NCBI RefSeq assembly: GCF_964355755.1
Contig: NC_092673.1
Span: 35,089,648-35,153,647 of the forward strand
DNA length: 64,000 bases
Direction: 5' to 3'
Source: Antedon mediterranea
Taxonomy: Eukaryota > Animalia > Echinodermata
Part shown: positions 15,436-48,478 of the stretch, in pieces
Layout: each line of letters starts with the position of its first letter
Numbering within the stretch: the first letter of the stretch is position 1
Notes under the pieces: model-generated
The model's input: the letters and a program-made list of their open reading frames with translations, nothing else
The model's database searches: none
Told to the model about the DNA's origin: nothing
Translations under genes and position numbers: made by a program

Positions 15436-15470
15436 TATAAACTTATAGTGGTGTTGTCTTTACATTTTAG

Positions 15471-16007
15471 AAATCTCAGTGGAAGAATTTAATGAACTGT
15501 TGACTGATACAGCAAATTGGTATGACCGACTTGGATACCTGAAAGCGTTGAAAGTTTTATACAAAGACCATTTGAAAAAATCTAATGTAGCAGTGTCTAA
15601 TGCTAAAAGTGTCTGGTATCTACTACAGGATTTAACAGGCTCTGGAAGTTTAAGTCCATCAAATCTTACTATCATATACGACACAATAAAGATAACCAAG
15701 CAATTTGGCTTTAAGTCAAACGTTAAGAATCAATCTTCAGAAGATATTAAGAACCATGTAGTATCAATGTTGACATCTTACAGACAGAAGCTTTTTCGGT
15801 TGGGACTAGAACTTAAAAAGGATGAAGTATCAAAACTTGATTTTATTTTTAACAATCCATTATTAAAGAACTATCCAGATAGCTGGAGTTTGATTAAGGA
15901 TTTTGAAGACAGAAAGATCATTGATAGCGATTATGCAAGGATGGAGGATTTTCTTAATGTTTTAGAAAGAAATGGAATGACAAAGGCTAGGAAGATTTTT
16001 CTTGATG
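15471..16007 (+). CDS. NLR gene exon: tandem death-effector domain pair A (phase 1-1, 537 bp)
   Basis: ttttag| acceptor and G|gttagt donor; FNELL...LKVLYKDHL...LLQDL...LSPSNLTII, then SYRQKLFRLGLELKKDEV, resembling caspase-8/FLIP DED1+DED2. Confidence 0.8.
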
Positions 16008-17545: not shown

Positions 17546-17574
17546 GTTAGTTTATTTGTTTATTGAATATTAAT

Positions 17575-20624: not shown

Positions 20625-20773
20625 GTATGTATTATTTCTTATTACTCACTGTGCCAGTAAAGAAATAGCAAAAATATCAAAACAGCTAGAGTGACGAAAA
20701 ATGTTCTGGGCCATATTTCTTAAAATTTATAAAGATTTTTTTCACTTTCTTATTTTGTCATTGTCTCCTTTTC

Positions 20774-20946
20774 TGTAATGTATTATGTATAGCTATAGTA
20801 TTCTCAGATACTCCTAAATATTAGTATAGCGCCACCTATGTTGAAATAAAACTGATTTACAAAATGGACGATACACTGTTTATGTCATGAGGCATGAGGT
20901 CTATAAACAATCAATTGTAATCCACAAACATCTTCAGTATACAACA
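20774..20946 (+). repeat. 5' LTR (173 bp)
   Basis: Near identical to 30625-30787; tgta...caaca; contains aataaa. Confidence 0.92.
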
Positions 20947-20949
20947 AAT

Positions 20950-21735: not shown

Positions 21736-21788
21736 ATTGGCGACGAAGATTAAAATAAGGTAACGTTATAGAACAATTATAACAAAAA

Positions 21789-24700: not shown

Positions 24701-25730
24701 CTGTTGGTGGCCCAGAATGGACCACGATATTGAGACATTAGCGAAAGCATGTCCAGGTTGCAAACTTAACATGAAGGAGCCACCAAAAGCACCATTACAC
24801 CCGTGGGAGTGGCCTGAAAACGTATATGACCGCATCCATATCGATTACGCAGGTCCTATCGACGGCATTATGTATTTAGTAGTTGTAGACGCGCACTCCA
24901 AATGGCCAGAAGTATTAGCGACTAGAGATACCTCTTCGAGTAAAACCATTACCATGCTGAGAAGTCTATTCGCACAATACGGCCTATGCAAGATACTTGT
25001 GTCGGACAACGGACCGCAATTTAAGTCAAGTGAGTTTGAAATGTTCTTGAAAAGCAATGGTATCACTCACATTACTTCTGCACCTTATCATCCTGCGACT
25101 AATGGTCTCGCAGAGCGCATAGTCCAAACATTTAAAAATGCCTTGAAAATGGCAAAACTGGACAAAGGAAGTAAACAGCTAAAGTTAGACAATTTCTTAT
25201 TACACTACAGGAATTCACTACATGCTACAACCGGTGTAAGTCCAGCACAGTTATTCCTAAATAGAAATTTGAGAACAAGACTTGACCAAATTAAACCTGA
25301 TCTAAAGCGGAAAGTTTTCGAGAATCAAAACAAGCAAAGAGTAAACCCAGGAAAACAACGCGAATTCAAAATTGGACAAAAAGTGTTAGCTAGAGATTAC
25401 AGAAATGAGGATAAGTGGGTAACAGCTGAAATTATAGCAGTAAATGGCCCACTGTCATACGAAGTGAAAACACAACAAGGAGGACTGTGGAATAGACATG
25501 TCGAACAATTGCGCGAAACGCTATTGAAAACTACAGAAATCACCCCACTGACATTGACACCACAGTACATACCGGAAGCGACACCAACACCAACAAAGGA
25601 AACACCACCTTCAATCGCAAACAATCAACAAAGCGAAGAAGCAGTAAATAAAGAAATCATGAACGCTAAAACACCAAGACGCTCCAAGAGAGTGGTCAAA
25701 AGCCCTAAAAGGCTTATAGCTGAAATATAA
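21789..25730 (+). pseudogene. Gypsy gag-pol, frameshifted (~22108, ~22545, ~23385, ~23820)
   Basis: Zinc knuckles CHRC...H....C and CNFCKGKGHIEKAC; protease LDTGA; RT ILDD; RNase H DASPYGLGAVL; integrase H..H...CPGC and HIDYAGP/SDNGPQF/NGLAER, split over five ORFs. Confidence 0.93.
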
Positions 25731-26007
25731 TGAACTCATTGTCTTCCAATAAAATACACAAGACTTTTGAACTGAACATTGATTTTTAATTCATATATAA
25801 ATCTCAATTATTCTCTTTCACCTAATTGTACAACAATATATGTAACAAACTATGCGACCGAGAAGGTAAGACGTACACATACGGAGCTCCGCCACAAATA
25901 TTTTATACTTTGCCAACACCAATTACGCCTGGTCATTCTCTTGGATTTCATAAAGTAGTAAGTTATCTTACCTTTAATCACATCATTAACAGTATTTAAT
26001 CATTAAA

Positions 26008-26793
26008 ATGAGTACTAGAAAGAGTAAAAAATCGGCCGATCTAACGCCTACAACCGACTCAATTGAAACTGCCGCTACTGCAAATGACACGTCAGCACAA
26101 ATAAATGCCCTTCGTAGTGAGCTCCAGAAATTTGCAGCTGATATTAACTCAAAAATTGACAATGGAATTAAATCAATTAAAGATAATCAACAGGTATTGA
26201 TCAACAGAATGGAAGAAATAGAAAATAAACAATCTGTTATGGAAAAATCACTGGAATTTGTTTCGGAAAATACAACTGAAATAAAAACGGAAGTGACTGG
26301 ACTGGAGGCTAGCGTCACTTCAATTGAAGCGGAACTGAAAGAAAAGGGTGACAGAATCAGCGTTTTGGAAAAGGAATTACTCAAAATGGAAAGATATAGT
26401 AGGAGTTTCAATCTAAGATTTGGAGGCATCTCAGAAAAGGAAGGAGAAAATCCGATAGATGAAATATCAAATTTAATAGATAATGAACTTGACTTAGCAG
26501 GCGTTACCATTGAAAACGCACACAGAACGGGTAGGCCTAAAACCGGATCGCAAACAACAGTTCCCAGACACATAATAGCGAAATTTCTATACAGACCGCA
26601 AAGGTTCTCTATCCTATCAAAGGCTAAAAAAATAAAGAAAAAAAGCTTTTATGTCATGGAAGACCTACCCCTATCTGATGTGAAAAAAAAACATCAACTA
26701 AAGGATGTAATGTCGAAGGCATATCTAGCAGGCAAGCACCCGTCTTTTCGTAACGGCACATTGTATATAGATGGAATGCCTTATCGTGAATAG
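26008..26793 (+). CDS. LINE ORF1 protein (coiled coil plus RRM-like domain)
   Basis: 261 aa intact ORF; heptad-rich N half, then YSRSFNLRFGGISE...IENAHRTG...PRHIIAKF...VMEDL. Confidence 0.85.
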   Translation: MSTRKSKKSADLTPTTDSIETAATANDTSAQINALRSELQKFAADINSKIDNGIKSIKDNQQVLINRMEEIENKQSVMEKSLEFVSENTTEIKTEVTGLEASVTSIEAELKEKGDRISVLEKELLKMERYSRSFNLRFGGISEKEGENPIDEISNLIDNELDLAGVTIENAHRTGRPKTGSQTTVPRHIIAKFLYRPQRFSILSKAKKIKKKSFYVMEDLPLSDVKKKHQLKDVMSKAYLAGKHPSFRNGTLYIDGMPYRE

Positions 26794-27149
26794 TCCTAAT
26801 GACGCAATCAGAATGTAACTTGAATAGCTATTCAAGTATTTATCGCACATTGACACGTAGGCCTATTTTATATAATCGTTTATTCTACCTTTAGAAGGCC
26901 TAGTAGACGTGTGCATTGCGTTTTTTATGTACATATACGAGAACCATTATGTTATGTTGGACCATCATGGACCTGATTATTTGGCGGAGCAAAGAAGCAA
27001 AGAAATTGAATATTTATTTATAATACTTACTTTGTAATGAACTTGCATATATGTATTCATATTTTTATTAATTATGTATGTATATTTATTTATTTATGTT
27101 TTATTTATTTGTTATTATTTATGTTTGTTTTATCATATCTTCCTGATCC

Positions 27150-30100
27150 CCTTCTCCATTCTTTCTTTATAAATCCTGTAACTGAACATGAAGTGATGAT
27201 AATTATAAATGATCTTGATCCAAAGAAAGGAGGTGGCGATGATAGAGTTACACCATACGTTATTAAATTGATTTCTCCATTCATTATTAATCACCTTACG
27301 TTCTGTATTAATTCATCTTTTTCTTCAGGTAGTTTTCCCAATTATTTAAAGTTAGCAAAAGTTATTCCAATTTTCAAGAAAGGTAGACAAGATATACTTT
27401 CAAATTACAGACCCATTTCACTACTTAGTACCTTTTCCAAAATCATTGAAAAATTAATGTACTCCCGTCTCTATGAGTTCCTGGATTGCAATAACGTACT
27501 CTTTGCTCATCAATATGGTTTTCGTAAATCTCATTCCACTTCACATGCAATCCTTGATCTCATAAATAATGTAACAAACTCCTTTGAAAAAAGACAATTT
27601 TTGTTATCTGTCTTTGTCGACTTATCCAAGGCCTTCGATATTATAGATCACCGTATACTTATTAATAAACTTAACAATTATGGAATCAGGGGTATTACCT
27701 TAAACTGGTTTCGTAGTTACTTAAGTACTGTATGAGGAAGCAATATGTCTCGTTTGGTAATTGTATATCACCAGAGGAGGAGATGACATGTGGGGTGCCA
27801 CAAGGGTCGGTTCTTGGCCCTCTCCTTTTTTTAATTTACGTAAATGACTTATCCAGAGTCAGTGACACCCTCCATGTCATCTCCTTTGCTGATGACACTA
27901 CACTATTTTTTTCTCATTCAGATTTAAAAGTTTTATTTTCTATAGTTAATAATGAATTGTCAAAATATAATGACTGGTTCATCTCAAATAAACTCCTTAT
28001 AAACTCCATGAAAACCAATTACATTCTTTTTCATACACAACGTCAATCGTTAGACCTTAATGATTACAATATATTTATTAATGGAGATAACATTAAACAA
28101 ACGTCAGAGACTATGTTCCTTGGTATTTTAATCCAGGAAAACTTGAGATGGACCAGTCATCAGAATCATATTGCAAATAAAATTTCTAAAACAATTGCGA
28201 TTATAAATAATCTTAAGCACACTTTTCCCCGACGTATCCTTCTTTCATTATATAATTCTTTAATTTTACCTCATCTTTATTATTGTAACATTATTTGGGC
28301 TGCTGACTATCCATCACATCTCGATAAACTTAATAAGCTGATTAAGCGTGCTATTAGAAATATTACTTGTACGTCTCGCATTACTCCATCTGAACCTTTA
28401 TTTTATGAACTTAAAGTGGAGCTCCACCCAGAAAATTACTATTTTTCATACATTTCAACTATTATTTAAAAATATCATCCCTTATACTTCATATTTTTTT
28501 GAATTTTTTTTCAATGAGTACGATTTTCTTGAAAATCACGCCTTTTTGCGTTTTGGGGGGATACCTTGTAATTTCCTATTCTTTTACATGCAAAAGGGGG
28601 GTATATTTGAATAATCCTAAAAAATTCATTTCTTCACCAAAAAAAAAATGTAAAATGTATATTTATGTAATTTTTCCAGATCTTTCTATTTCTGGTATTT
28701 TTATCACGTATACATTGCGCAATTTTGCGTAAATAGACACTTTCCCCCGTTCGGGTCCAATTGGGTTTTTTATTTTGCTAGGGAGTACGATCACGTGACA
28801 TTTTCACAATCACACTACTGCAGCTGGCGATCTGTTATTTTGTCGCGATGTTATTTTTGACGGGCGAAAAGTATATTAAAACATTCTGAATGTGACCCTA
28901 TTATGTTTCACAGTGTAATAATGTGATTATGAGACTATTACTAAAATGTCAAATTTAACGAGATTTGAGAAAGATGTGGCTATATATTCAATAAAGCTAG
29001 GCCTAGGCCTACTAGAGTGTAGGTATGTACCGATGCTGCTTAGTGGCTTGGCCTCTAGCTAGGCTAGGCTGACAGCAGTGAAGTTTGTTTTGCTGTCACC
29101 CGACCTTGGCCTACCCATGGGCCATGATAGGGTGCCTGAATAGTTGCTTTTCAGTCAGGTCTAAGCTTGCACATCGCTTTACTATTCTTTACTACTCTTG
29201 TTCTGTATAGGATTTTGTGTTTCACAATTCTTAATATGCGAGAAAACCCAGGAACGATAAATGGGGCGAAACGACCATGCCTATGAATACATAGGCCTCT
29301 AGACAAAAATTCAAGGCTAGCTAGGCTGAGCAGACGGCTTAGCTAGGCCTAGCCCTAGCTTAAAGTTAAAAGCAATCTTGTTGTACAGTGAAAATCATGA
29401 GGTTACATGTAAATTATACTGACATTCTTATCGGAAATATTACTTAGGCCTAAACAAATCGTATTAATTGTGTGTATAAAATTTATTCCCCATTTTTCGA
29501 CACATAATTTACCAAAGGGAAGAAATTTCCACAATGCGTTGACCAGCGACTAAAACGCGTCAGTCGCTAAGTGTAACGCGTTTCGCGACGTATTGTAAAC
29601 TAATAACCCCTAAGTTACTGAAAAACTGTAATTTGTTAAAAAACACTATTTTCTGACCGATTTTTTAGAAATGAGTTTTTGGAAAATATTTCCGTATTTT
29701 TCCTGTTTTTTTTTATGTAATCACTTTCAATTAAACATACTTAAACATAATATAAGCTGAGAAAGTCTGAGTGTAGCTCCACTTTAAGTTACTGAAGTTA
29801 GGTGATATACATAAATTGCAAAGTGCCTCTTTTGTCTTTCAATATTTTTCTAACAATCTTCCTTCTCCCATGATGAATTTATTTAACACTGCTGATTTCA
29901 ACCATGGTCATAATTTAAGAAGTACTGTTCATAAGTTTCAGTTAACTATTCCTTTTGTAAGATTAACTATCTTCCCACTTTATTTATGTTTCTGGCCCTT
30001 TTATTTGGAATCAATTAGATACTAGTATTGTTAACTCTTCCTCTCTCCCAACTTTTCATAAAAAACTTAAAAGTAATTTGTTATCATTGTACTCAAACTA
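27150..30100 (+). pseudogene. LINE ORF2 reverse transcriptase; endonuclease missing, frameshifted at ~27733, split by a DNA transposon
   Basis: NYRPISLL, QYGFR, DLSKAFD, GVPQGSVLGPLLFLIYVND, FADDT; the frame PLFYELK|LLKLGDIHKLQ is restored after removing 28415-29787. Confidence 0.9.
28415..29783. mobile_element. Non-autonomous DNA transposon with TTAA TSD and AG...CT termini (Kolobok-like), 1369 bp
   Basis: TTAA-agtggagctccacccaga ... tctgagtgtagctccact-TTAA. Confidence 0.88.
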
Positions 30101-30624
30101 GACCTTCAAACTGTTTTTGTCACGACTTTTTTTTATTTTATTTAATAATTATATACAAATGTATTTTTTTCTTTTTGTTTATGGGTCTTGCGTGACAAGT
30201 ATTCTCTTCTTGCAAGATCCTCTATTAATGGTATTTTTTGTATTTTCTCATTATAAATTATCATTCTTTTTTATTGTATTGTTATACCATTGATAGAAAC
30301 TAATAAATGTTGAATTATTATTATTATTATTAATGGATGAACACTAAACTGTTCACTATCAATTATCATTATTAATGGACCTTAAGATATATTCACTTTA
30401 CAGATTCATAATTTTAAATATGTTTGTATGTCTAAATAGGAACAAAGTCAAATAGCATACAATTATTAATTAATGAATGTTCTTTTGTTTATATCGTATG
30501 ATAAAACTTAAAATAATAAAAAAAATATAAAACATAGAAAAAAGATTCTTACGGATAACTTTAACTCATATATTGTTGACACACCCAAATGTTTAACCCA
30601 CCTTTAAATTATTTCTGGGAGAAT

Positions 30625-30787
30625 TGTAAGTATTATATACTATGTATTCTCAGATACTCCTAAATATTAGTATAGCGCCACCTATGTTGAAATAAAACTG
30701 ATTTACAAAATGGACGATACACTGTGTTTATGTCATGAGGTCTATAAACAATCAATTGTAATCCACAAACATCTTCAGTATACAACA
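30625..30787 (+). repeat. 3' LTR (163 bp)
   Basis: Matches the 5' LTR with a few indels; followed by the TTTTC TSD. Confidence 0.92.
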
Positions 30788-30925
30788 TTTTCTTTTTCCC
30801 ATTCCTTTTTCCTTTTAACCATTACATTTCTAAAATATTTGTAAAAATTAGGGCTTTTTTTTTTTCAGAATAAAGACTAGTCCAGTTCAATGTGATGTTT
30901 TAAAGCTAATATTTTTTATATTTAG

Positions 30926-30973
30926 TTGCAGAATCTACTGAAAGAATAATGAAGCTATCACCAATAGATAAAG
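30926..30973 (+). CDS. NLR gene linker micro-exon 2 (48 bp, phase 1-1): VAESTERIMKLSPIDK
   Basis: tatttag| (alternative in-phase cag at 30931) and AAAG|gtattt; similar to micro-exon 19681. Confidence 0.7.
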
Positions 30974-31312
30974 GTATTTTATCAATTTTGGCAACAAAAA
31001 TAAAATTGCATTTGCAAACAATATGCCAAAATCTAAAATTTACTCCAATTAATTGTATAATTGAACTTGATTGTAAATTATGGTTGGTGTCATACATTTG
31101 GACTTGTACATACTGTAATTGATTGTATATTTTGGGTGGCATACAGCTAAATAACTACAGAGAAGGTAAACTTCTTCCTAGACCAGAATTAAGTTATAAC
31201 AAAGTTATGAATTACTATATATTTATATTTTCTATTAAAAAAAAACCTTCATAGAAAAGAATCTGTTTCATTTAACTTTACTAACTTGAAACTTACTAAT
31301 TTCATTTAACAG

Positions 31313-34300
31313 TTATCAAGACGTTCTTGAAAGAACACAAAAAACAATCATATCAAGATATGCATCTACTGGGAACAGCAGTTTTTAATGAAGAACACAA
31401 AGTTAACATTGCTGACGTATTCACAGATCTCAAGTTACTTCAATCTACAAAACAAAAACAGGTTGACCAAGCAACAAGACGGCAAGATGCTAAACCAACA
31501 AATTTAGTACATGTGTTGAAGATGATAAAATATAGAAGTTCATGTAAAGTTCTAATAACAGGTAAAGGAGGGATGGGAAAGACAACTCTTCTTAGACACA
31601 TTACTTATAACTGGGCTACTAATAATGATGATACATTTGCTGACAAAGTATTGTTTCTGTTAAATATCAGAGACATAGAGCCAGGAAAGACAATCATAGA
31701 TACTATTGTTGATGAAATTGACCTTGAAATATTTGCTAACCATATGAAAAAGATATCCAATGAGGAACCTAAGGAATTAATAAAAACGTTCATGATAGAA
31801 AAGGGGAATGAAATAGTTATACTATTAGATGGATTAGATGAGTTAAAGCAAGATGCTAAAAAACCATTACAATTATTGAAATTTAAATCTGACTATAAAA
31901 ATACCACAATAATAACATCACGACCTGAAAATATTACAACATTTGTTGAAAACTGTGATGTAGGTATTGAAGTTAATGGATTTAGTGAAGAAAGTATGAA
32001 GCTTTATATTCAGAAATATTTTACAGAAAAACCTAAATTAGGAAAAGTGTTAATCATAAAATTAAATCTTATTTCACACACGAATTCTGATTCAGAGGAT
32101 TCAAAAGATTTTGATCAAGAAATTTCAGATTCAAAAGATTCAGATTCTGAAAATTCTGATTCAGAAGATTCAAATTCAAAATATTCCGATCCAGAAATTT
32201 CAGATTTAAAAGATTCAGATTCTGAGAACAAACACACTGATCCATTTAGAAATATAGATATCATTGAACTGTGTTCATCTCCTTTATTATTACTTCAGAT
32301 TTGTAGCATTTGGGAAGAATCAGAAAAGCTTCCCAATGATTTGTCAGATCTTTTCAAAGAACTAATTTGTTGCACTTTAAATCAATATTTATCCAAAACA
32401 AATAGTGAGGGGAAGAAATCTACAATTGCACATTTTGAACAAATTCGAGGTGATTACAAAACTGCTATCCTAGCGTTAGGCCAATGTATTTATGAACGAC
32501 TAAAAACAAATGAACTGATAATTGACAAGTCTCAGTTCACAAATATGGTAAAGGATGAGGATAAATCAATAGTGGACTTGGCACTAAAAATTGGATTTGT
32601 TTACAAAAAGCCACCTCTTAATAAAAGAGATAAAAAAGAGATCTTCTCTCCCCCACACAAGCTAGTTTCGGAGGCATTAGCAGGGTTTTACCTTTCTGAT
32701 AAGTGTCATTCAGATAATTTGAAGGAGGAGGAGTGTGAAATGATAATATTTAATAAATATCTACATATGACAATTATATTCACAATAGGATTCTTAGGTG
32801 ATGATGCTGGTAGATTAATGAAACATTTGATGAAAGTGAAAGCTTCAAACTTGTATTCACTAGCAAAGTATTTCAGATATGTAAAGAAAGAACATGAATA
32901 TTCTGTAATAGAGCAATTAGAAGCAAAAATATCTAGTGATGAAGTACTTACAGAAACATGTTTAGAAATGTCTGAATCATTTAGATGTGCTCTAGATTAT
33001 ATTAACCCTTTGAGTGAGCAAATAGCAACATCACAAATGCAATTGGTAAAACTTATGAGCAGATGTTATGGTTTTTTGAATGAACAGTGGAATTCAGTAA
33101 TTATGGAGAAAAGACCCACTACATCAACTACAGAATTTTGTGCTATGGTAGTTCATTTCTTAATATTCATGTATACACCAATAAGTGATGATGAAGAAGT
33201 ATTTGAATTCGAATCGTTTGTGAAAGACAATGAGATTGGTACTATTGCAACTATGATGGACAAATTTCAATTTCAATATGGCTTTAAAAACATTTCATTT
33301 GATAAATCACAGAGTCCTAATTTCTTGATACATTGTTTGAAATATTCACCCAACCTGAAAAATATCTATTTTAAACCTGAGAGTTTAACCATTATTACAT
33401 TAAACCACGTTCTTGAAAATATCTTTCCACTTGATCTAAAGCTTCATATTGAAAAGGATGATCTAAGTAATATTGATGCTGTTTCACTTTCTAAGTTGGG
33501 GAGTCTAGTTGAGAAGTTTACATTTAGTAACTGTAACTTATCAGTTGATCACCTAAATGTTCTTGTAAATTTCTGTTATGAATGTGATAGGATATTGACA
33601 TGGAAGAAGTTGGATTTAAGTCGAATTAACCTATGTTCAATTGAAGGATCAAAATTAGCTTGTTTATTAAAATTCTCTCCACAACTAGAACATCTTGATA
33701 TGAGTGAGTGTAATCTCTCAGGTAGTATTATAAAAGATTTATTGAATGAATGTGATAAAAACAATGTGATATTAAAGCGAGGTATGGTTGATGTAACGAA
33801 AAACAATCTTTCAGATATTGATGTTGATACACTATATAAGTTGGTGGATTCAGATTGTACGCATTATTTAATGTTTAAATTTTGTGATCATAGCCTGTCA
33901 GTTCATCACCTGAAAAGTCTTATAGATGTATGTTGTGAACATGGTAGGATATTGATATGGGAAGAGTTGAGTTTAAGTAGGATTAACTTAGCTTTAATTG
34001 AAGGATCAAAATTAGCTTGCTTATTAAAATTCTCTCCACAATTACAAAATCTTGATATGAGAAACTGCCATATTTCAGGTAGTATTATAAAAGATTTATT
34101 GAATGAATGTGATAAAAACAATGTGGTATTGAAACCTGGCATGATTAATCTAGGGGAAAACAATTTGTCAGGTATTGATGGTGGTACACTATTTAGGTTG
34201 ATGGATTCAAATTGTATAAATTATTCTACTTTTGAATGGAAAGATTATAGCATGTCAGTTGATAACCTAAGAGGTCTTGCAGATGCCTGTTATGAACATG

Positions 34301-37300
34301 GTAGGATATTGACATGGGAACAGTTGAATTTAAGGTGGATTAACCTAGCTTCCATTAAAGTATCACAATTAGCTTGTTTATTAAAATTCTCTCCACAATT
34401 ACAAAATCTTGATATGAGAAATTGCCATATTTCAGGTAGTATTATAAAAGATTTATTGTATGAATGTGATAAAAACAATGTGGTATTGAAACCTAAATTG
34501 CTTGATCTTCAGGAAAACAATTTGTCAGGTATTGATGGTAGTACACTATTTAGGTTGATAGATTCAAATTGTATGAATTATTCTACTTTTAAATGGAAAG
34601 GTTATAGCATGTCAGTTGATAACCTAAGAGGTCTTGTAGATGCCTGTTATGAACATGATATGATATTGACATGGAAAGATTTGAGTTTATATGGGGTTAA
34701 CCTATGTTCAATTGAAGGATCAAAATTAGCTTGTTTATTAAAATTCTCTCCACAACTTGAACGTCTTGATATGAGAAACTGCCATCTTTCATGTAGTATT
34801 ATAAAAGATTTATTGAATGGATGTGATAAAAACAATGTGGTATTGAAACATGATATGCTTGATCTAGAGGGAAACAATCTTTCAGATATTGATGGTGTTA
34901 CACTATTTAGGTTGGTAGATTCAAATTGTATGAATTATTCTACTTTTGAATGGAAAGATTATAGCATGTCAGTTGATAACCTAAGAGGTCTTGTAGATGC
35001 CTGTTATGAACATGATATGATATTGACATGGAAAGATTTGAGTTTATATGGGGTTAACCTATGTTCAATTGAAGGATCAAAATTAGCTTGTTTAATCAAA
35101 TTCTCTCCACAACTTGAACGTCTTAATATGAGAAACTGCCATATTTCAGGTAGTATTATAAAAGATTTATTGAATGAATGTGATAAAAACAATGTGGTAT
35201 TGAAACCTGGCATGATTAATCTAGGGGAAAACAATTTGTCAGGTATTGATGGTGGTACACTATTTAGGTTGATGGATTCAAATTGTATAAATTATTCTAC
35301 TTTTGAATGGAAAGATTATAGCATGTCAGTTGATAACCTAAGAGGTCTTGCAGATGCCTGTTATGAACATGGTAGGATATTGACATGGGAACAGTTGAAT
35401 TTAAGGTGGATTAACCTAGCTTCCATTAAAGTATCACAATTAGCTTGTTTATTAAAATTCTCTCCACAATTACAAAATCTTGATATGAGAAATTGCCATA
35501 TTTCAGGTAGTATTATAAAAGATTTATTGTATGAATGTGATAAAAACAATGTGGTATTGAAACCTAAATTGCTTGATCTTCAGGAAAACAATTTGTCAGG
35601 TATTGATGGTAGTACACTATTTAGGTTGATAGATTCAAATTGTATGAATTATTCTACTTTTAAATGGAAAGGTTATAGCATGTCAGTTGATAACCTAAGA
35701 GGTCTTGTAGATGCCTGTTATGAACATGATATGATATTGACATGGAAAGATTTGAGTTTATATGGGGTTAACCTATGTTCAATTGAAGGATCAAAATTAG
35801 CTTGTTTATTAAAATTCTCTCCACAACTTGAACGTCTTGATATGAGAAACTGCCATCTTTCATGTAGTATTATAAAAGATTTATTGAATGGATGTGATAA
35901 AAACAAAGTGGTATTGAAACATGATATGCTTGATCTAGAGGGAAACAATCTTTCAGATATTGATGGTGTTACACTATTTAGGTTGGTAGATTCAAATTGT
36001 ATGAATTATTCTACTTTTGAATGGAAAGATTATAGCATGTCAGTTGATAACCTAAGAGGTCTTGTAGATGCCTGTTATGAACATGATATGATATTGACAT
36101 GGAAATATTTGAGTTTATATGGGGTTAACCTATGTTCAATTGAAGGATCAAAATTAGCTTGTTTATTAAAATTCTCTCCACAACTAGAACATCTTGATAT
36201 GAGTGAGTGTAATCTCTCAGGTAGTATTATAAAAGATTTATTGAATGAATGTGATAAAAACAATGTGGTAGTGAAACGTGATATGCTTTATCTACGGGGA
36301 AACATTCTTTCAGATATTGATGGTGTTTCACTTGTTAGGTTGGTGAATTTTTTTTTTGCACAACATAATGGTGATGACGAGTTTTATGAACCACCTATTG
36401 GTTATGCTAACAGTGTTTATTTTCATGATTACAGTCTGTCAGTTAATAACATAAGAGGTATTATAGATGCTTGTTATGAACATGATTGGATATTGAAATG
36501 GACAAGTTTGAATTTAAGTGGGATTAACTTATCTTCAATAGAAGGATCAAATTTAGCTTGTTTATTAAAATTCTCTCCACAACTAAAACGTCTTGATATG
36601 AGGAATTGCCATATTTCAGGTAGTATTATAAAATATTTATTGAATGAATGTGATAAAAACAATGTTGTATTGAAACCTGGCATGCTTGATCTAGAGAAAA
36701 ACAATTTGTCAGATATTGATGGTGTTACACTATTTAAGTTATTAGATTCAAATTGTATGAATTATTCTACTTTTGAATGGAAAAATTATAGCATGTCAGT
36801 TGATAACCTAAGAGGTCTTGCAGATGCCTGTTATGAACACGATGAGATGTTGACATGGGAAAAGTTGAATTTAAGTGGGATTAACCTAGCTTCAATTGAA
36901 GGATCAAAATTAGCTTGTTTATTAGCTTGTTTATTAAAATTTTCCCCAAAACTTGAATGTCTTGATATGAGAAATTGTCATCTCTCAGGTAGTATTATAA
37001 ACGATTTATTGAATGAATGTGATAAAAACAATGTGTTATTGAAACCTGGCATGCTTGATCTAAAAGAAAACAATTTGTCAGGTATTGATGGTGGTACACT
37101 ATATATGTTGGTAGATTTAATTAATTGTATGAATTATTCTACTTTTGAATGGAAAGATTATAGCATGTCAGTTGAAAACCTAAGAGGTCTTGCAGATGCC
37201 TGTTATGAACATGATAGGATATTGACATGGCAACAGTTGGATTTAAGTGGGATTAACCTATCTTCAATAGAAGGATTAAAATTTGTTTGTTTATTGAAAT

Positions 37301-40300
37301 TCTCTCCACAACTACAACATCTTGATATGAGTAATTGCCATCTCTCAAGTACTATTATAAAAGATTTATTCAATGAATCTGATAAACACAATGTTGTATT
37401 GAAACCTGGCATGCTTGATCTAAATGGAAATAATCTTTCAGGTATTGATGGTAGTACACTATTTAGGTTGATGGATCTAATTTATATAAATTATTCCAAT
37501 TTTACATGGTGTGATTATAGCCTGTCAGTAGATACCCTTAGAGGTCATATAGATGCCTGTTATGAACATGGTAGAATATTGAATTGGAAGTGGTTGAATG
37601 TAAGTGGTACTAACCTGTCTTCAATTGAAGGATCAAAATTAGCTTGTTTATTGAAATTTTCTCCACAACTACAACATCTTGATATGAGAAATTCCCATAT
37701 CTCAGGTAGTATTATAAAAGAATTATTAAATGAATGTGATAAAAACAATGTGGTATTAAAACCTGGCATGCTTCATCTAAAAGGAAACAATCTGTCAGAT
37801 ATTGATGGTGATACACTTTTTAGGTTGATGGATCTACTTTCTAAATGCAATATGGATCAATATGGTTATTGTTCCATAAGTTATTTGGCATGGACTGATT
37901 ATAACCTGTCAGTTGATAATCTAAGATGTTATTTGGACACCTTAGATAAACATGGTCAAATATTGGATTTGTATATTTTGAATTTAAGTGGGATTAACTT
38001 GTCTTCAATTGAAACATCAAAACTGGCTTGTTTATTGAAATTGTCACCACAACTACAACAACTTGATTTGAGTGATTGCCTTCTCTCTGGTAGTATTATA
38101 AAAGATTTATTAAATGAATGTGATAAAAACCATGTGGTATTGAAATCTGGCATGCTTGATCTAAAGGGAAACAATCTTTTAGATATTGATGGTGTTACAC
38201 TATTTAGGTTGGTGGATCTAAATTGTATAAAGCATTCCACTTTTAAATGGGATGATTATATCCTTACTGTTGATGACTTAAGGGATTTTATTAATGCCTG
38301 TTGTGAACATGGAAACATTTTAACATGGAAAAAGTTGAGTTTAAGTGGAATTAACCTAGCTTCAATTGAAGGATCAAAATTGGCTTGTTTATTAAAATTC
38401 TCTCCAAAACTTAAAACTCTTAATATGAGTAATTGCCATCTCTCAGGTAGTATTATAAAAGATTTATTGGATGAATGTGATAAAAACAATGTGGTATTGA
38501 AACCTGGCATGATTGATCTTAAAGGAAACAATCTTTCAGATAGTGATGGTGTTACACTGTTTAGGTGTATAAATCTGATTTATAATAACTTTTATTACAA
38601 GTATGTTTGCATTTTTATGGATTACTATATTTTTAATTGGAATGATTATAGCCTGTCTGTTGATAACCTGAAAAGTCTTGTAGATGCCTGTTATGAACAT
38701 GGTAGGATATTAACATGGGAAAGATTGAATTTAAGTGGGAATAACTTATCTTCAATTAAAGGATCAGAATTAGCTTTTTTATTAAAATTCTCTCCATATT
38801 TAAAACATCTTGGTTTGAGATATTGTCATCTCTCAGGTAGCATTATAAACGATTTATGGAATGAATGCGATAAAAACAATGTGGTATTGAAACCTGGCAT
38901 GTTTGATCTAAGAGGAAATAATCTTTCTGAAATTGATGGTGTTAGACAATTTGGGTTGGTGAATTTAATTTATAACAAATACACTTTTGAATGGTGGTAT
39001 TACATGCTTTCAGTTGATAACCTGATAAGTCTTGTAAATGCCTTGGATGGTAGGATATTGACATGGACAAACTTAAATTTAAGTTTGATTAACTTATCTT
39101 CAATTAAAGGATTACATTTAGCTCTTTTATTAAAATGTTCTCCAGAACTAAAACACCTTGATATGAGTAATTGTCATCTCTCAGGTAGTATTATAAAAGA
39201 TTTATTGAATGAATGTGATAAAAACAATGTGTTATTGAAACCTGGTATGCTAAGGCTTGATCTAAAAGGAAATAATCTTTTAGATATTGATGGTATTTCA
39301 CTTTTTCGGTTGATGGATTTAAATTGTATGGATTGTTGTACTTTCAAATGGAAAGATTATAGCCTGTCATTAGATAACCTAAAAAGTCTTATAGACGCCT
39401 GTTATGAACCTGGTGGAATTTTGAAATGGGAAAGATTGGACTTAAGTGGGATTAACCTATCTTCAATTGATGTATCAACATTTGCTTATTTATTAAAATT
39501 CTCTCCAGATCTAGAACATCTTGATATGAGTAATTGTTGTCTCTCAGGTAGTATTATGAAAGATGTGTTAAATGAATGTCATAAAAGCAATGTGGTATTA
39601 AAACCTGGCATGTTTGATCTAATAGAAAACAATCTTTCAGATATTGATGGTGTTTCTCTATTAAGGTTGGTGAATCTAATTGATATGGATGATGACACTT
39701 TTGAATGGTATGATTATTATAACATGTCAGTTGATAATCTAGAAGGTTTAATAGATGCCTGTTATGAAGATGGTAGGATATTGAATTGGAACAGGTTGAG
39801 TTTAAATGGGATTAACCTAGGTTCAATTAAAGGATCAAAATTAGCTTTTTTATTGACACTCTCTCCAAACCTAGAATGTTTTAACATTAGACATTGCAAT
39901 CTTTCGGGTAGTATTATAAAAGATTTATTGACTGAATGTGATCAGAATAAAGTGGTATTGAAACCTGGCATGCTTGATCTACATGGAAACGATCTTTCAG
40001 ATATTGATGGCCTTTCACTTTTTAGGTTGGTGAATTGTATGAATTATGACACTTTTAAATGGTGTGATTATAGCCTGTCGGTTGATAACCTTGTGAATAT
40101 CTGTAAGGGGAATAATAGTAAGTTAACATGGAGCTATTTAGATTTAAGTGGACTTAACCTTGTAGGATCCACTTTAGCTGGTTTAATACCATTATTTCCA
40201 TTACTAGAACATCTCAGTTTGGAAAATTGCAATCTTTCAGGTGGTATGATAATGTCTGTATTGGATGAATGTGAAAGAAATGGAATAGTATTGAAAAAAG

Positions 40301-40716
40301 AAATGCTGAATCTGATGGGCAATGACCTTTCAGATATCACAGATGAAACATCAGTTGCTAAATTAGAATGGATCAGTACTAATCGGTTTTCTAATCTGAA
40401 CTCGGATTTAGATAATTTTGGAAATGAAAACTTAGACTTTGACAACTTAGAAAATGAAAACTCAGATTTAGACAACTTAGAAAATGAAAACTCTAATTTA
40501 GACAGTTTAAAAAACAAAAATTCAGACTTTGGCAACTTAGGAAATGCAAAATCAGACCCAGAAAACACTGATATCTCTGATGACCAAGACAATTCAGATC
40601 CAGGAATTGCAAACAAATCTAAAGTGGCTCTAATAATGTATTTTTTCAATTATTTTTTACTATTTATTTTGCTTATGTATATTTTCAATTTGTTATTTGG
40701 CCTACAATTTTTTTAG
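31313..40716 (+). CDS. NLR gene giant terminal exon (9.4 kb): NACHT NTPase, HD1/WHD/HD2, ~19 x 119-aa LRR super-repeats, acidic linker and hydrophobic tail
   Basis: ctaac branch motif and ttaacag| phase-1 acceptor; Walker A GKGGMGKTT (31561), Walker B ILLDGLDEL, sensor ITSRP, CSSPLLL, WHD PPHKLVSEALAG; LxxLxLxxNxL repeats; 3129-aa uninterrupted ORF. Confidence 0.95.
33490..40340 (+). repeat. Coding tandem repeat, 357-bp basic unit, with a near-identical 1071-bp (3-unit) duplication
   Basis: Antisense shadow ORFs at 34290/34647/35004/35361/35718/36075 are spaced exactly 357; ~34055-35094 is almost identical to ~35126-36165. Confidence 0.95.
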
Positions 40717-41732
40717 AATTATAAATCATATTGCTTTTTATAATATCATACTGAAAAAGGGAAATTAATATAAAGGTCAGATGTATTGTCCCCCGAAAAA
40801 ATAATTCTTAAACATTTTTTTGTCATTTTGCCATTTTAATGTCACCTAATAGTTATCCACTTTGACCAAAATTGGATCGAAAAAGAAATGTATTTGCCTA
40901 AAAAACTGCAATTTAAACAGAGATGATTAACATAGAACCATTATTGTTTTTCACCAATCACAAATAATTGATATTCTTTGATTTACTTTTTTCAATAGCA
41001 AGACAAGTCTGTAATACATAACCTATACAAGAGTAAATTCAATAATGTTAATATCTATTATACTTTCTAATTTTACTAATTTACCTATATTGAGGATCTA
41101 ATTATACTAAGTTGTACAGCTTAAGTAGACATCCTATTTTTCAAAAATTTAATTAATCATAAATAAGTCATATGTGTTTTGCTTAGTGAAGAAATAACAT
41201 TCTTGAAGGACAGTGTGGGAGTAGTGGTTGTGCCTTGTCTTTGTGGAGGAGAGAAATGGAGTTATTAATGAGTTTTAAAAATCAGCTCTTTGTGGTAGAT
41301 GCTAAATAATTCTAGAATACTATAAAGCCAGACATCAGAATGTGGGTTAGATGAGAATTATGCCCTACAATTAGATTTAGGTTGAGGAGTCATTCTGTAC
41401 ATCTCTATCAGCACAACTACATTTTCAAATATGCATGATTTATGTGATATGTACTATGGATCCTGCTTACCTGGATAACCGACATTAGCTCTTTCCCTAC
41501 GAAGTGGGGGACAATTTGAAAAGAAGTATTCTTTATTGGAACACCCCTACATATCAATGGGACCGTTGGCTACCGCACCCCCTAGTGTGACCATTCCATG
41601 TATCACCATCATTTCTTTCTGTATTGTTGTTGAGTAGAGTACGAAAACAAAAGAATGAACTAATTCAGAGAATTCTACAGCTGACTAGCTGAAATTAAGT
41701 TGTTGTTTATTACAATACGTTGAGAAACGTTG

Positions 41733-42125
41733 CCCTGAAGCAGGGCAGAAATATTATATATATACTAGATACGTTGGAAATCGTTTCCCTTGCTCCTATT
41801 GAAGCAGGGCAGAAATATTATAGATACGTTGAAAATCGTTTCCCTTGCTCCTAGTGAAGCAGGGCAGAAATATTATAGATACGTTGAAAATCGTTGCCCT
41901 TGCTCCTATTGAAGCAGGGCAGAAATATTATAGATACGTTGAAAATCATTGCCCTTGCTCCTTTTGAAGCAAGGCAGAAATATTATAGATACGTTGACAA
42001 TCGTTGCCCTTGCTCCTATTGAAGCAGGGCAGAAATATTATAGATACGTTGGAAATCGTTACCCTTGCTCCTATTGATGCAGGGCAGAAATATTATAGAT
42101 ATGTTGAAAATCGTTGTCCTTGTTC
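41733..42125. repeat. 55-bp minisatellite, ~7 copies (same family as 1143-1815)
   Basis: Same unit and same flanks. Confidence 0.95.
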
Positions 42126-42607
42126 GTCGAACAGAAAAGAAATATCACATTGCATTACCTTGCTGGAGTCTCTCCGAGTAGGCTGCATAGCTGATTGGTA
42201 CGTTGAAAACCGTTGCCCTCGTGGTTCATTCACGGGGCAGAAATACAGAATACAGAGGAATCAGCCCTGCATTTATTATTATTTATGTATTTGTATATAA
42301 CATGTTAAGTACTGTAGACTATACCATTGTTTTTGCAATATCAAATAATTTCTTGTACAGTATTATATCATTATATACAGTAAAATCTTTATTAATGGAC
42401 ACTTGTTGGCTAAATATTAAAGAGAAAGTTGTACAACCCCAGTTAAGTCATACTTAAAGGACACTTCTTCATTCTCTGAAAAAAATCATGAGAACTGTAG
42501 CCAGAGAAAACACTCCTATTGAAAAAAAACCATTTGTTTTGGTCCCAAAAGTGTCCCTTAAATATAATTCTATTGTATCTTAATTATTCTGAATAATGTA
42601 GCAGTTA

Positions 42608-43454
42608 TTTTATATCTTGTATTTGTAGTTAAGTTTAATGTTGAAGTATATATTTATACTGTGCACAGATCACTTGCTTTAAGTGATTTTATATCTTGTA
42701 TTTGTAGTTAAGTTTAATGTTAAAGTATATATTTATACTGTGCACAGATCACTTGCTTTTAAGTCATTTTATATCTTGTATTTGTAGTTAAGTTTAATGT
42801 TAAAGTATATATTTATACTGTGCACAGATCACTTGCTTTTAAGTAATTTTATATCTTGTATTTGTAGTTAAGTTTAATGTTGAAGTATATATTTATACTG
42901 TGCACAGATCACTTGCTTTTAAGTCATTTTATATCTTGTATTTGTAGTTAAGTTTAATGCTGAAGTATATATTTATACTGTGCACAGATCACTTGCTTTT
43001 AAGTCATTTTATATCTTGTATTTGTAGTTAAGTTTAATGCTGAAGTATATATTTATACTGTGCACAGATCACTTGCTTTTAAGTAATTTTATATCTTGTA
43101 TTTGTAGTTAAGTTTAATGTTGAAGTATATATTTATACTGTGCACAGATCACTTGCTTTTAAGTCATTTTATATCTTGTATTTGTAGTTAAGTTTAATGC
43201 TGAAGTATATATTTATACTGTGCACAGATCACTTGCTATTAAGTCATTTTATATCTTGTATTTGTAGTTAAGTTTAATGTTAAAGTATATATTTATACTG
43301 TGCACAGATCACTTGCTTTTAAGTCATTTTATATCTTGTATTTGTAGTTAAGTTTAATGTTAAAGTATATATTTATACTGTGCACAGATCACTTGCTTTA
43401 AGTCATTTTATATCTTGTATTTGTAGTTAAGTTTAATGTTAAAGTATATATTTA
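42608..43454. repeat. 80-bp tandem repeat, ~10.5 copies
   Basis: tatatcttgtatttgtagttaagtttaatg...tgtgcacagatcacttgcttttaagtcattt; period 79-80; single copy in the paralogous region ~2865-2950. Confidence 0.95.
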
Positions 43455-46400
43455 CAGTGGGACAGCCAGTCGACAAATCGTGTCAAATTTCGACTCGGAG
43501 AGGGCGCCCTACTTTTCTAATTTAGTTCAAAATGGCTAAATTTTAGGGTGTTGGAAAAACACAATATTTGTAAATTTAGTTGATTATCGGAAAAATGTTG
43601 TTAGTGAAATAAATTCATAAATGGTTTTAATATATTGTCATGTAAAATTAAATGTATTTGAACAAAACGATAATCTGTAATTTAACGGCAAAATCAACCA
43701 ATGTCTTTTTTCCGAAATTGTACCCTAGAAAATCATTAAAATAAAATATTTAGAAAAATTGAACAGTCCTGAATTTAAAATCCCTGTTAGAAAAATTAAT
43801 AATCTACAGAATACGATATTAAGATACAAAATTCGGTGGTTGGGATGCAGCTCCGACTATTCAAACTAAAGGTACCACTATTTGTTCCATCGAAAACTAG
43901 CGAAACCGCCATTTTGTAAACACATCGTCATCGTGTTTATGAATTTATTTATAGCGAACGATATACGCGATGTTTATAATTGTCCGCGTATAAGAATTCA
44001 TATAAATAAATACATTCCAATACAACGTATATTATTACTTGTTTATTTATCACAGTAAACATTTTAGTTGAGGAATATTTATCATAACTATTATAATAGC
44101 TTTTATACGAGTCCGAGGCCTAGCCCTATTAGCGAGCGATTGTTCCAGAGGCGCAAAGTCACTTAGTGACGTTGTGATCGGGCGCGTCGGGCCTAGCTAA
44201 TATTAATAATATGACCTGAAATAAGCGGCTAACAAGAACTGTTATATACTTGCTTACAATTGTTTTGTTATTGATGAACAAACAAGCAATTAGATTGAAA
44301 AACAAATTATTTATTCATTTTTTTGGGGTAAAAACATGTACAAACTAGGCCTAGGGGGGGGGGGGGCCTAGTACTGTATCTATATATAAATTTACGTAAG
44401 GGCAAAATTCGGTAAATCGCGCCTTACTTCTAGAATTTTCACTCGATGGTATGTAAAGTTGGTTCGTACTTTCGGTACTGATTTTAACCGCCTGATGTAA
44501 CCCTGTTTACTAATTAAATTGAGTTAAATAATTAGTTATTGACGATTAAAACGAATTTAGGTTCAACGATTTGCCCCAAATAGGGGTGTTTTCCGATCGT
44601 GGTATACACTGTCTAATGGATGTCCATCTTGAAAAATACCCGCCAAAAAAATGCGAGGAGGCTTCGCATTTTTCTATCTCCTCCTACGATAATTGTTTTT
44701 AATAGCTGAAAACCGGTTGAACAGCTAGAGTACACCATCATAATGTTGAAGACAGGCCGATTTTCTTTAAAAAATACTATTTTGATAGATTTAATATACG
44801 ATTATACAAATGTATTGATTTGCGATGAATGGAACATCCCAATCTCTCAGTCTGCCAGAGTTTGGTTTAACACAAGTACTGTAGGTAAATTTATGAGCCC
44901 TTTGAGAATAAACTTGCAATACTTTGACAATACTGTAAATACCTATTAACTATTTTTCCTTTGAATCGAACATTTCTTACTGTGAATGTTCGTACTGTTA
45001 GATGTAATATAAAAATATATACAAATAAACTTTATTACTGAGACTGTGGATAGGCTCTACTGTTAGATATACAAATAAACTTTATACTGACAGTTCCTTC
45101 TCAACGTTTGTATTAATTAATAATTACCAAAAATATAAACGTCGTAGTGGTGTATCGTGACATGTACTTTAATATTTCAATCGATTATGACAGTGACAGT
45201 TTTAACAAAGTATTAAATCGCAAATGTTTTAGGCCTACTGTATTTAGAGGTATATTATTTATAGGCCTATAAAACATGAACAAAATATTTCGTTACTCAG
45301 TGGATAAAGAATATATTTAAAAATTGTTCCTCTTTGTACCTATCCGCTTTCCCATCCCTCAACCCTAATGTTACATAGCGAGGAGGCTTCGCATTTTCCT
45401 ATCTCCTCCTACGCTAATTGTTTTTAATAGCTGAAAACCGGTTGAACAGCTAGAGTACACCATCATAATGTTGAAGACAGGCCGATTTTCTTTAAAAAAA
45501 TACTATTTTGATAGATTGCTAGAGTACACCATCATAATGTTGAAGACAGGCCGACTTTCTTTAAAAAATACTATTTTGATAGATTTAATATACGATTATA
45601 CAAATGTATTGATTTGCGATGAATGGAACATCCCAATCTCTCAGTCTGCCAGAGTTTGGTTTAACACAAGTACTGTAGGTAAATTTATGAGCCCTTGGTT
45701 TAACACATACGGTAGGTAAATATATGGGCCCTTTGAGAATAAACTTGCAATAGGTTCGGAAAATGTTAAAAACCAATTTCTATTATTTGAATCGGTAAAC
45801 AGTTTCCATTTATTATACATTGATGATGAAACATGAAATATTCCTATTTATGTCCCTCGAGGTTCATTACAATTTATATTTAGTAGTCCCACGGACTTCA
45901 TCTTAGCCACTCCCCCGAGTGCTAAGGCCAAATTTATGATACCCTACTTTCTATGTAAGTTTAGTTACAGTTAGTTCTTGACGATAATACAACGAATTTA
46001 GGTTACACCCTTCGGCCGCGAAAACGTTTCTGTACAAATATGATACCGATTGGCTTTATTTCATTCAACAGCGACCATAATCTCGCCAATTACAGGATAG
46101 ATAAACTATTTTATTATTGATGTGCTTATAAATTAAGACTCATGTAAACAGCTTGATTCCATCATTTTACAGACAAACGAAACTTTTTTAAACCTACTGT
46201 TTCAATAACTGAGTATAATACTGTATACGTTTTCATAAGTAAGTGCATATACATTTTCGTGTTTTCATTGACGAGATTGTAATAGTAACTTCAGTAACTA
46301 TTACAGTACTTATTTATTATACGACACAAGACAATTGTATCTGACAGGTACGTACATTATTCTAAAAAATAAGTCTAGATAGATCCCTTAGGCGTCATAA

Positions 46401-48163: not shown

Positions 48164-48478
48164 TTTATACTGTGCACAGATCACTTGCTTGCTTGAAGTC
48201 ATTTTTTCTGAATCTATAAATTACAATTAAATTCTTGCAGTAAATCAATCAAATTTTGTATTTCTATCAGATTTGTTGAAGAGATGAATAAAATGGATTA
48301 AAAATGTATATGAGAGTATATTGTTTTCTTTGTTGTAGTTTTAATTTTATTTATTGACGTTTTAGATATAAATGACGACAACAGTATACATAGTGATCTA
48401 CTTCCTGATGATTTTACGTAAAAGTCACTTTTGTTTTCCGAACCATAGCATAAATTTATTTATTAATATTGACACATA

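What the first reader, a model, noticed from the sequence alone, without database searches (positions are those of the whole stretch)
33490..40340. LRR domain built from 357-bp four-strand cassettes with conserved scaffold and variable ligand face
Seen: about 19 units of about 119 aa, each with four LRR-like strands (WxxLxLSGINL / LxxLDMxNCHL / MLDLxGNNL / FxWxDYSLS). Scaffold segments (IEGSKLACLLKFSP, SGSIIKDLLNECDKNNVVLKPG) are nearly invariant even in DNA. The x positions of the strands vary widely: KKLDLSR, EELSLSR, EQLNLRW, KDLSLYG, TSLNLSG, QQLDLSG, KWLNVSG, NRLSLNG. Known: these positions form the concave binding face of LRR solenoids. Inference: an intron-free cassette array in which homologous scaffolds promote unequal crossover or gene conversion, giving a fast-changing receptor repertoire.
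Basis: partly seen in the sequence, partly recalled or inferred. Interest (0 to 1): 0.8.

Follow-up and report, generated by a model that had tools for sequence, protein, structure and literature searches.

The report
Crinoid NLR with shuffled four-LRR cassettes
An immune-sensor-type (NLR) gene, likely from a feather star, ends in one very long reading frame holding 18 similar four-repeat cassettes that share duplicated and identical tracts and vary most on their predicted binding face, likely giving new recognition surfaces in the way known for some fungal sensors.

Summary
The array is real: 18 full ~119-aa units (33601-40128), 10 exactly 357 bp, all indels in frame. It is the sensor end of a NACHT-LRR (NLR) gene with upstream DED-like exons, and all 49 relatives found are crinoid proteins with 0-12 units. 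AlphaFold gives four ribonuclease-inhibitor-like repeats per unit. Exchange between units is visible: a near-perfect three-unit (1071-bp) duplication, a chimeric unit 5, and a 143-bp tract identical between units 1 and 8. Concave-face residues change faster than exposed helix residues (omega 1.5 vs 0.56), and 3-4 face sites test positive. The face as a whole is only 1.1-1.5 depending on the model, and the signal fades in the older units. Scaffolds are conserved (88-89% nt), not invariant. A length-variable loop, one per cassette, is a second variable element. Closest known: fungal high-internal-conservation NLRs, here with LRRs. Allelic variation in unit number, expression and ligand are untested; somatic diversification has no support. 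The scan noted analogous, exon-based arrays in urchin and tunicate NLRs. Verdict: new variant of a known kind.

The parts
15471..16007 (+). Predicted exon 1: tandem DED-like pair, phase 1-1 (start exon lies upstream, not found)
   Evidence: Pfam DED E=2.4e-8, 34.5 bits, just under the 35.9 cut-off, 2 stretches; AG/GT ends and 92% identity to P0009
17012..17545 (+). Predicted exon 2: second tandem DED-like pair, a copy of exon 1 about 1.54 kb downstream
   Evidence: Pfam DED E=2.5e-7; about 80% nt to exon 1; 87% to P0009
19681..19755 (+). Predicted 75-nt linker exon, phase 1-1
   Evidence: AG/GT ends; best match in the window to the linker of P0014
20082..20624 (+). Predicted exon of the same size class, probably a diverged death-fold pair
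   Evidence: AG/GT ends, phase 1-1; no Pfam hit; 42% to the exon at about 62017-62550, which weakly matches exon 2 (E=0.008). Death-fold identity is inferred
30932..30973 (+). Predicted 42-nt linker exon, phase 1-1
   Evidence: AG/GT ends, joins in frame; its 3' end resembles that of the 75-nt exon
31313..40716 (+). Predicted last exon, 9.4 kb: NACHT, helical domains, whole LRR array, tail, stop
   Evidence: stop-free frame; acceptor AG just before 31313
31549..32028 (+). NACHT domain (Walker A at 31561, Walker B at 31819)
   Evidence: PF05729 E=3.6e-18, 66 bits against a cut-off of 26.7; PDB hits NLRC4 E=3e-5 and entries 5irm/5irl; motif positions
33286..33600 (+). Degenerate first cassette (unit 0)
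   Evidence: matches unit HMM positions 19-119; 31% mean identity to the internal units
33601..40128 (+). 18 four-LRR cassettes; starts 33601, 33958, 34315, 34672, 35029, 35386, 35743, 36100, 36499, 36856, 37228, 37585, 37969, 38326, 38716, 39064, 39427, 39787
   Evidence: 72-100% pairwise nt identity; AlphaFold pLDDT 88 and 80.5
34055..36105 (+). Recent three-unit duplication: 34055-35034 equals 35126-36105 at offset 1071, one mismatch in 980 bp; unit 5 is a unit-4/unit-2 chimera
   Evidence: three private substitutions at the junction (35095, 35097, 35125)
36125..36267 (+). 143-bp tract identical to 33626-33768 (unit 1) in units otherwise about 81% alike: likely conversion or crossover tract
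   Evidence: global permutation p=0.001; pair identity
40129..40340 (+). Three-strand terminal cap, shared with P0009
   Evidence: unit HMM 1-88; same end motif in P0009
40399..40557 (+). Acidic, Asn-rich linker from a 30-bp tandem repeat
   Evidence: TRF period 30, 5.3 copies
40624..40716 (+). Hydrophobic C-terminal stretch, possible membrane anchor, then stop
   Evidence: 19-residue hydropathy 2.26; a comparable tail in only 1 of 49 relatives; coding status uncertain

Best explanation
This is the sensor end of a NACHT-LRR (NLR) gene of a crinoid-specific family, built from 18 tandem four-LRR cassettes in one reading frame, which likely grow, shrink and swap pieces by germline unequal crossover and gene conversion while selection likely diversifies a few residues on the predicted binding face. 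Shown: the NACHT domain and the array in one frame; the unit structure; the duplication, chimera and identical tract; face-biased amino-acid change; one length-variable loop per cassette. Predicted: each cassette folds as four strand-helix repeats of ribonuclease-inhibitor type, about 78 repeats in all, forming one long solenoid. Inferred from the sequence: upstream phase-1 DED-like exons splice onto this exon. Inferred from textbook NLR biology (recalled): ligand binding to the LRR frees the NACHT to oligomerise and cluster the DEDs, which recruit a caspase-8/FADD-type partner. Because the unit is a multiple of 3 and has no intron, any in-register misalignment keeps the frame, so one event changes the number and order of binding strands and loops.
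For: NACHT E=3.6e-18 and DED hits. All 49 relatives are Anneissia or Antedon proteins; 28 of 49 carry 1-12 full units. Best fold match is ribonuclease inhibitor (Z 16.2, rmsd 9.0, 332 aligned), followed by NLRP3 and NLRP9. Offset-1071 duplication with 1 mismatch in 980 bp; 6 of 120 unit pairs have identical tracts at global p<0.05. Window units form one side of a branch against 48 Anneissia units (99/99), as do P0001's 12 units (100/96). Face omega 1.5 vs 0.56 for polar helix residues, p=1e-10. M2a beats M1a in 6 of 6 settings on 15 units (LRT 15-30), still does so with multi-nucleotide changes allowed (p=7e-4), and exceeds 298 of 298 no-selection simulations on mosaic trees. Top sites 3, 66, 95 and 90 are face positions. 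Face entropy exceeds other non-core positions in all 5 long Anneissia proteins (p 0.0004-0.025). Psim 0.78 passes the 0.70 threshold used for fungal NLRs (PMC13449251).
Against: Face omega depends on the model: 1.08, not above 1 (p=0.55); 1.46 with multi-hit (p=0.043); 1.07 in units 9-18 (p=0.66). M2a on units 9-18 gives p=0.2 and 0.027. Synonymous divergence is also higher at face codons (0.385 vs 0.286 overall). PHI-like tests are significant in 3 of 15 runs, none in units 9-18 or 11-18. One of the five top sites under GY94 (116) is off the face. Sites 3 and 95 are not hypervariable in P0003 or P0005. Exchange between genes is not shown: window-P0009 unit identity (64%) is about equal to their NACHT identity (66%). 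Only one haplotype was seen. The codon models are my own code, with rescaled nucleotide branch lengths. The exon chain lacks a start exon.
Confidence: 0.72

Rival explanations
1. Ordinary repeat turnover. The array grew by tandem duplication as a spacer or scaffold, and the exposed strand residues vary because they are unconstrained; each unit is then fixed. There is no receptor repertoire.
For: Face omega 1.08 under GY94 and 1.07 in the older units. The older units 11-18 show no PHI signal. Persi et al. (PMC5120217, abstract) report that fast within-protein repeat divergence followed by fixation is universal.
Against: Polar helix residues, also exposed, have omega 0.56 against 1.5 on the face. 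The site-model signal survives the recombination and multi-hit controls. The gene is an NLR of a large family with very different unit numbers.
Confidence: 0.2
2. The youngest part of the array (the three-unit duplication) is an assembly error, so the evidence for very recent exchange is partly false.
For: 980 bp with a single mismatch.
Against: Three private substitutions at the junction and one within the copy are not what a mis-join of identical reads makes. The unit-1/unit-8 tract is independent of the duplication. A 477-nt contig of run X1 fits the unit-17/18 order. Selection tests left out units 5-7.
Confidence: 0.08
3. Somatic diversification: cassettes are rearranged in immune cells, as in lamprey VLRs.
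For: Only the modular, frame-preserving layout.
Against: The gene is complete in this DNA. No loose donor cassettes were found in the window: LRR hits of P0003 and P0005 fall only in 33511-40452. Germline exchange explains every feature seen.
Confidence: 0.04

Closest known systems
Crinoid 'uncharacterized' NACHT proteins: Antedon mediterranea P0009, P0011, P0014; Anneissia japonica LOC117103017 (P0001), LOC117120766 (P0002), LOC117125276 (P0003), LOC117114597 (P0004), LOC117124812 (P0005)
   Same: NACHT plus the same ~119-aa four-LRR unit, DED domains annotated in several, and the same variable loop position. P0009 has the two DED exons at 92% and 87% and the same cap.
   Different: 18 full units here, against 0-12 in 49 relatives (many models are partial). 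This gene adds an acidic linker and a hydrophobic tail. None of the relatives is named beyond automatic labels.
Fungal high-internal-conservation NLRs (Podospora HNWD het-d/het-e family; TPR and ANK NLRs)
   Same: STAND NTPase plus near-identical repeats, a few hypervariable positively selected positions on the binding face, and loss, gain and shuffling attributed to unequal crossover (PMC13449251 and PMC4986451, passages). PMC13449251 section 12 says such NLRs also occur in animals.
   Different: The repeat here is an LRR super-unit of four different repeats, not WD40, TPR or ANK; PMC4986451 found no LRR in fungal NLRs. Allelic length polymorphism, balancing selection and a function in non-self recognition are shown in Podospora and untested here. 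The automated survey in PMC13449251 discarded repeat units longer than 100, so a 119-aa unit could have been missed.
Invertebrate NLR expansions with NACHT and LRR on one exon (Amphimedon clade C; Lottia, Capitella and Nematostella examples)
   Same: Death-fold effector, NACHT and LRRs, with NACHT and LRR on one exon (PMC3879445, passages). The lack of introns is therefore not new.
   Different: The passages read do not describe a long array of near-identical four-LRR cassettes with internal exchange.
Ribonuclease-inhibitor-like LRRs (RI, NLRP3, NOD2)
   Same: Strand-helix repeats of 28-31 aa; best fold matches.
   Different: Period of four repeats (28/31/29/31); about 78 repeats; rmsd 7-9 A to RI and NLRP over 310-330 residues, which suggests another curvature (coordinates could not be inspected); one insertion-prone loop per four repeats.

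Membership tests
Animal NLR (NACHT-LRR) | NACHT domain with Walker A and B | tested here: met
   PF05729 66 bits against 26.7; motifs; NLRC4 hits
Animal NLR (NACHT-LRR) | C-terminal LRRs on the same chain | tested here: met
   same frame; PF00560 E=1e-13; RI-like fold
Animal NLR (NACHT-LRR) | N-terminal death-fold effector domain | tested here: inconclusive
   DED hits just under the Pfam cut-off; in-frame phase-1 exon chain, same order in P0009; splicing not observed
Animal NLR (NACHT-LRR) | Ligand-triggered oligomerisation and signalling | not testable with these tools
   needs bench work
High-internal-conservation (HIC) NLR | Repeat similarity Psim >= 0.70, or > 85% over 100 aa | tested here: met
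   Psim 0.78 on match columns; several units 91-100% aa to their nearest unit
High-internal-conservation (HIC) NLR | A few positively selected sites on the binding face | tested here: met
   sites 3, 66, 95, 90; 0 of 298 simulations reach the observed LRT; weak in units 9-18
High-internal-conservation (HIC) NLR | Repeat exchange within a gene | tested here: met
   duplication, chimera and 143-bp tract
High-internal-conservation (HIC) NLR | Repeat exchange between paralogues | tested here: inconclusive
   P0003 and P0005 units interleave; Antedon units are not resolved by gene; unit identity is about equal to NACHT identity
High-internal-conservation (HIC) NLR | Repeat-number polymorphism among alleles | not testable with these tools
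   one haplotype; only short contigs available
Fungal HNWD family proper | HET domain and WD40 repeats | tested here: not met
   DED-like and LRR instead; works like it, is not a member
VLR-type somatically assembled LRR receptor | Incomplete germline gene flanked by donor cassettes (feature recalled) | tested here: not met
   complete frame; no LRR cassette outside the array in this window; the rest of the genome is not held

The most novel reading that the evidence does not exclude
Crinoids have independently evolved an animal, LRR-based counterpart of the fungal repeat-shuffling NLRs. A family-wide four-LRR cassette acts as an interchangeable binding module, with a selected concave face plus one CDR-like loop of 8-44 residues. 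Its number and order differ between alleles under balancing selection, giving a heritable hypervariable cytosolic (here perhaps membrane-anchored) sensor repertoire for pathogens or non-self.
Probability: 0.35. Interest if true: 0.75.

Novelty: new variant of a known kind. Interest (0 to 1): 0.5.

Why it matters
How invertebrate deuterostomes diversify cytosolic sensors without adaptive immunity is mostly described as gene-number expansion. This gene shows diversification inside one exon: a frame-preserving cassette, visible exchange events, a handful of fast face sites and a length-variable loop. The parts are few and countable, so one long amplicon per animal would test whether an animal NLR behaves like the fungal repeat-shuffling NLRs. 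A ~78-repeat RI-like solenoid on an NLR also raises a structural question about auto-inhibition. Ten literature searches (listings read, open-access library only) showed no description of this crinoid cassette family. The general mechanism is known, which caps the interest.

Tried and rejected
No whole genome is held, so paralogues in this organism could not be counted. No RNA holder was listed; run X9 is only guessed to be RNA, so its contigs say nothing on expression or splicing. Summed contig depth over a single unit was far above that of unique contigs, but the tool states this is no copy number, so it is not used. The search of protein representatives never returned (queued; an earlier job failed), so distant non-crinoid relatives are not excluded. 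The Atlas gave only generic LRR clusters for P0009 (0.91-0.92). No PDB sequence matched exon 1. Alignment A2 aligned overlapping stretches to themselves and was discarded. The entropy rows were one column out of register; one search replaces them. The search for the start exon with P0009's first 23 residues found nothing convincing. Pairwise dN over whole-unit dS (1.56, CI 1.07-2.28) was not taken as proof, because dS at face codons is also raised. 'Scaffolds invariant in DNA' was rejected, and 'intron-free is new' was rejected. No complex prediction was run. The supplement of PMC13449251 could not be read; it may list crinoid HIC NLRs. The look-up of earlier scan findings by place found nothing.
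Full report
Observation. A single stop-free frame covers 31300-40716 (+), 3138 aa. TRF reports period 357, 18.0 copies. I delimit 18 full units at 33601-40128; 10 of 18 are exactly 357 bp and all length differences are multiples of 3. A degenerate unit precedes them and a three-strand cap follows, giving about 78 LRRs. Pairwise nucleotide identity is 72-100%. It is highest among units 2-7, 9 and 10 (88-100%) and 72-83% among units 11-18.

What the gene is. The same frame begins with a NACHT domain (PF05729, E=3.6e-18; NLRC4 is the best PDB sequence hit). Upstream lie two exons with DED hits just under the Pfam cut-off, a third exon of similar size without a Pfam hit, and two short linker exons. 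All have AG/GT ends and phase 1, and they join to a 3710-aa frame that lacks only a start exon. Antedon mediterranea P0009 carries the first two exons in the same order at 92% and 87%. Three homologue searches gave 49 proteins, all from Anneissia japonica or Antedon mediterranea (two of the searches scored only the top ~7980 candidates). 28 of 49 hold 1-12 full units and 21 hold none; many models are partial. The window is therefore most likely crinoid (inference), and the cassette is a family trait.

Structure. AlphaFold on units 2-4 gives pLDDT 88 and pTM 0.78, with four strand-helix repeats per unit. A 1161-aa model of units 10 to cap repeats this (pLDDT 80.5, pTM 0.47). Best matches are ribonuclease inhibitor (Foldseek E=7e-7; VIA Z 16.2, rmsd 9.0, 332 aligned), then a designed LRR, a flagellar LRR, NLRP3 and NLRP9. 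That the x positions of LxxLxLxxNxL face the concave side is established LRR knowledge (recalled); I could not read model coordinates. The loop between helix 3 and strand 4 (unit positions 82-93) is 10-26 aa in the window and 8-44 aa in five Anneissia proteins. It takes 35 of 42 inserted residues in the window and 430 of 431 in those proteins, and it is the low-confidence part of both models.

Exchange between units. 34055-35034 recurs at 35126-36105 with one mismatch in 980 bp, a three-unit duplication. Unit 5 joins unit-4 sequence to unit-2 sequence, with three private changes at the junction. Units 1 and 8, about 81% alike, share 143 identical bases (p=0.001). Six of 120 pairs (16 units; 6 and 7 left out) pass global p<0.05. 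PHI-like tests are significant in 3 of 15 runs, and in none on units 9-18 or 11-18. In a tree of 67 units, the 19 window units (99/99) and P0001's 12 units (100/96) each form one side of a branch, while P0003 and P0005 interleave. With Antedon paralogues added, units are not resolved by gene. Unit identity to P0009 (64%) is close to NACHT identity (66%), so exchange between genes is open.

Selection. All tests use my own codon-model code on 15 of 18 units (5-7 left out as near-copies). Face/core/rest omega is 1.08/0.37/0.46 under GY94 (face against 1: p=0.55) and 1.49/0.45/0.65 under MG94 (p=0.002). It is 1.46 with multi-hit (p=0.043) and 1.07 for units 9-18 (p=0.66). Face against polar helix residues is 1.5 vs 0.56, p=1e-10. 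M2a beats M1a in 6 of 6 settings (omega2 2.8-5.6 on 1.5-10% of sites). Sites 3 and 66 are named in all six settings and 95 in five; 90 and the off-face 116 are named in the three single-tree settings. For units 9-18, p=0.2 and 0.027. The observed LRT of 28.9 exceeds all 298 no-selection simulations on four block trees (maximum 20.6), and p=7e-4 with multi-hit. Face entropy is also raised in 5 of 5 long Anneissia proteins, but not always at the same sites. My reading: the face is freed from constraint, and a few sites are likely positively selected, mainly in the young units.

Public contigs. Four of nine listed runs were laid on the two flanks. X1 holds contigs identical to the window and one 477-nt contig that fits the unit-17/18 order. 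X1 and X7 also hold unit junctions with strand-1 variants absent from this array, which points to paralogues. X5 and X7 have no cover at 23474-25327 and show a joint 20735 to 30863 (2 contigs each, only 22 letters on the short side). That fits absence of the intron transposon and adjacency of exons 4 and 5. An X9 contig spans 40314-40703 without a gap, and X5 and X7 show an in-frame 3-nt loss at 40631. These are weak hints that the hydrophobic tail is kept; only 1 of 49 relatives has such a tail.

Mechanism. Shown: architecture in the last exon, unit structure, exchange tracts, face bias and variable loop. Inferred: germline unequal crossover and conversion in register; splicing of the DED-like exons; NLR-type activation and caspase recruitment (recalled from textbook NLR biology). 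Rivals: neutral repeat turnover (0.2; PMC5120217 abstract), a mis-assembled duplication (0.08) and somatic rearrangement (0.04).

Comparison with the known. It is an animal NLR by domain tests. It works like the fungal high-internal-conservation NLRs: near-identical repeats, four hypervariable selected positions, and repeat loss, gain and shuffling (PMC13449251: abstract, passages and section 12 read, supplement unreadable; PMC4986451: passages). It meets their Psim threshold (0.78) but is not a member of the HNWD family. PMC13449251 already states that HIC NLRs occur in animals. NACHT and LRR on one exon is known from sponge and other invertebrate NLRs (PMC3879445, passages). Passages of PMC8913654 and PMC12314368 cover echinoderm and coral NLR numbers only. 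Ten searches listed no paper on this crinoid cassette. Earlier scan notes describe exon-based recombining LRR arrays in urchin and tunicate NLRs (unchecked).

Verdict. What is distinctive is a four-LRR super-unit with a variable loop, in a single 9.4-kb frame, the longest among the relatives found. What is missing is any allele, RNA or ligand evidence.

Noticed in passing
window 20774-30787: A 10-kb LTR element sits in the predicted intron 4: terminal repeats 20774-20946 and 30625-30787 (91%), the same 5 bases on both flanks, Gypsy-type protease/RT/RNase H/integrase frames at 21995-25730, and a LINE-like RT at 27010-28469. Runs X5 and X7 seem to lack it.
   Followed up: partly
window 15438-17561: The two DED-like exons are themselves a ~1.54-kb tandem duplication (80% nt). 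Contig joints skip or repeat one period in X5/X7 and X1, a hint of copy-number variation in the effector end. P0009 shares these exons at 87-92% but its NACHT region at only 66%, suggesting mosaic genes.
   Followed up: partly
window 61988-62593: An exon-like frame 42% identical to predicted exon 4: probably the front of another NLR paralogue.
   Followed up: no
window 733-3238 vs 40709-48477: The start of the window matches the 3' flank of this gene in several collinear blocks (70-91%), beginning at the stop codon. Possibly the tail of an upstream paralogue or shared repeats.
   Followed up: partly
window 32098-32222: A 15/45-bp Ser/Asp-rich repeat is inserted in frame just after the NACHT core. 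P0003 has an acidic insert at a similar place.
   Followed up: no
window 36909-36936: A 12-bp tandem duplication adds four residues to the first helix of unit 10.
   Followed up: yes
P0001 residues ~2300-2387 and ~2527-2615: Two half-length (two-LRR) units inside the Anneissia array, so crossovers can also occur between strands 3/4 out of full register.
   Followed up: no
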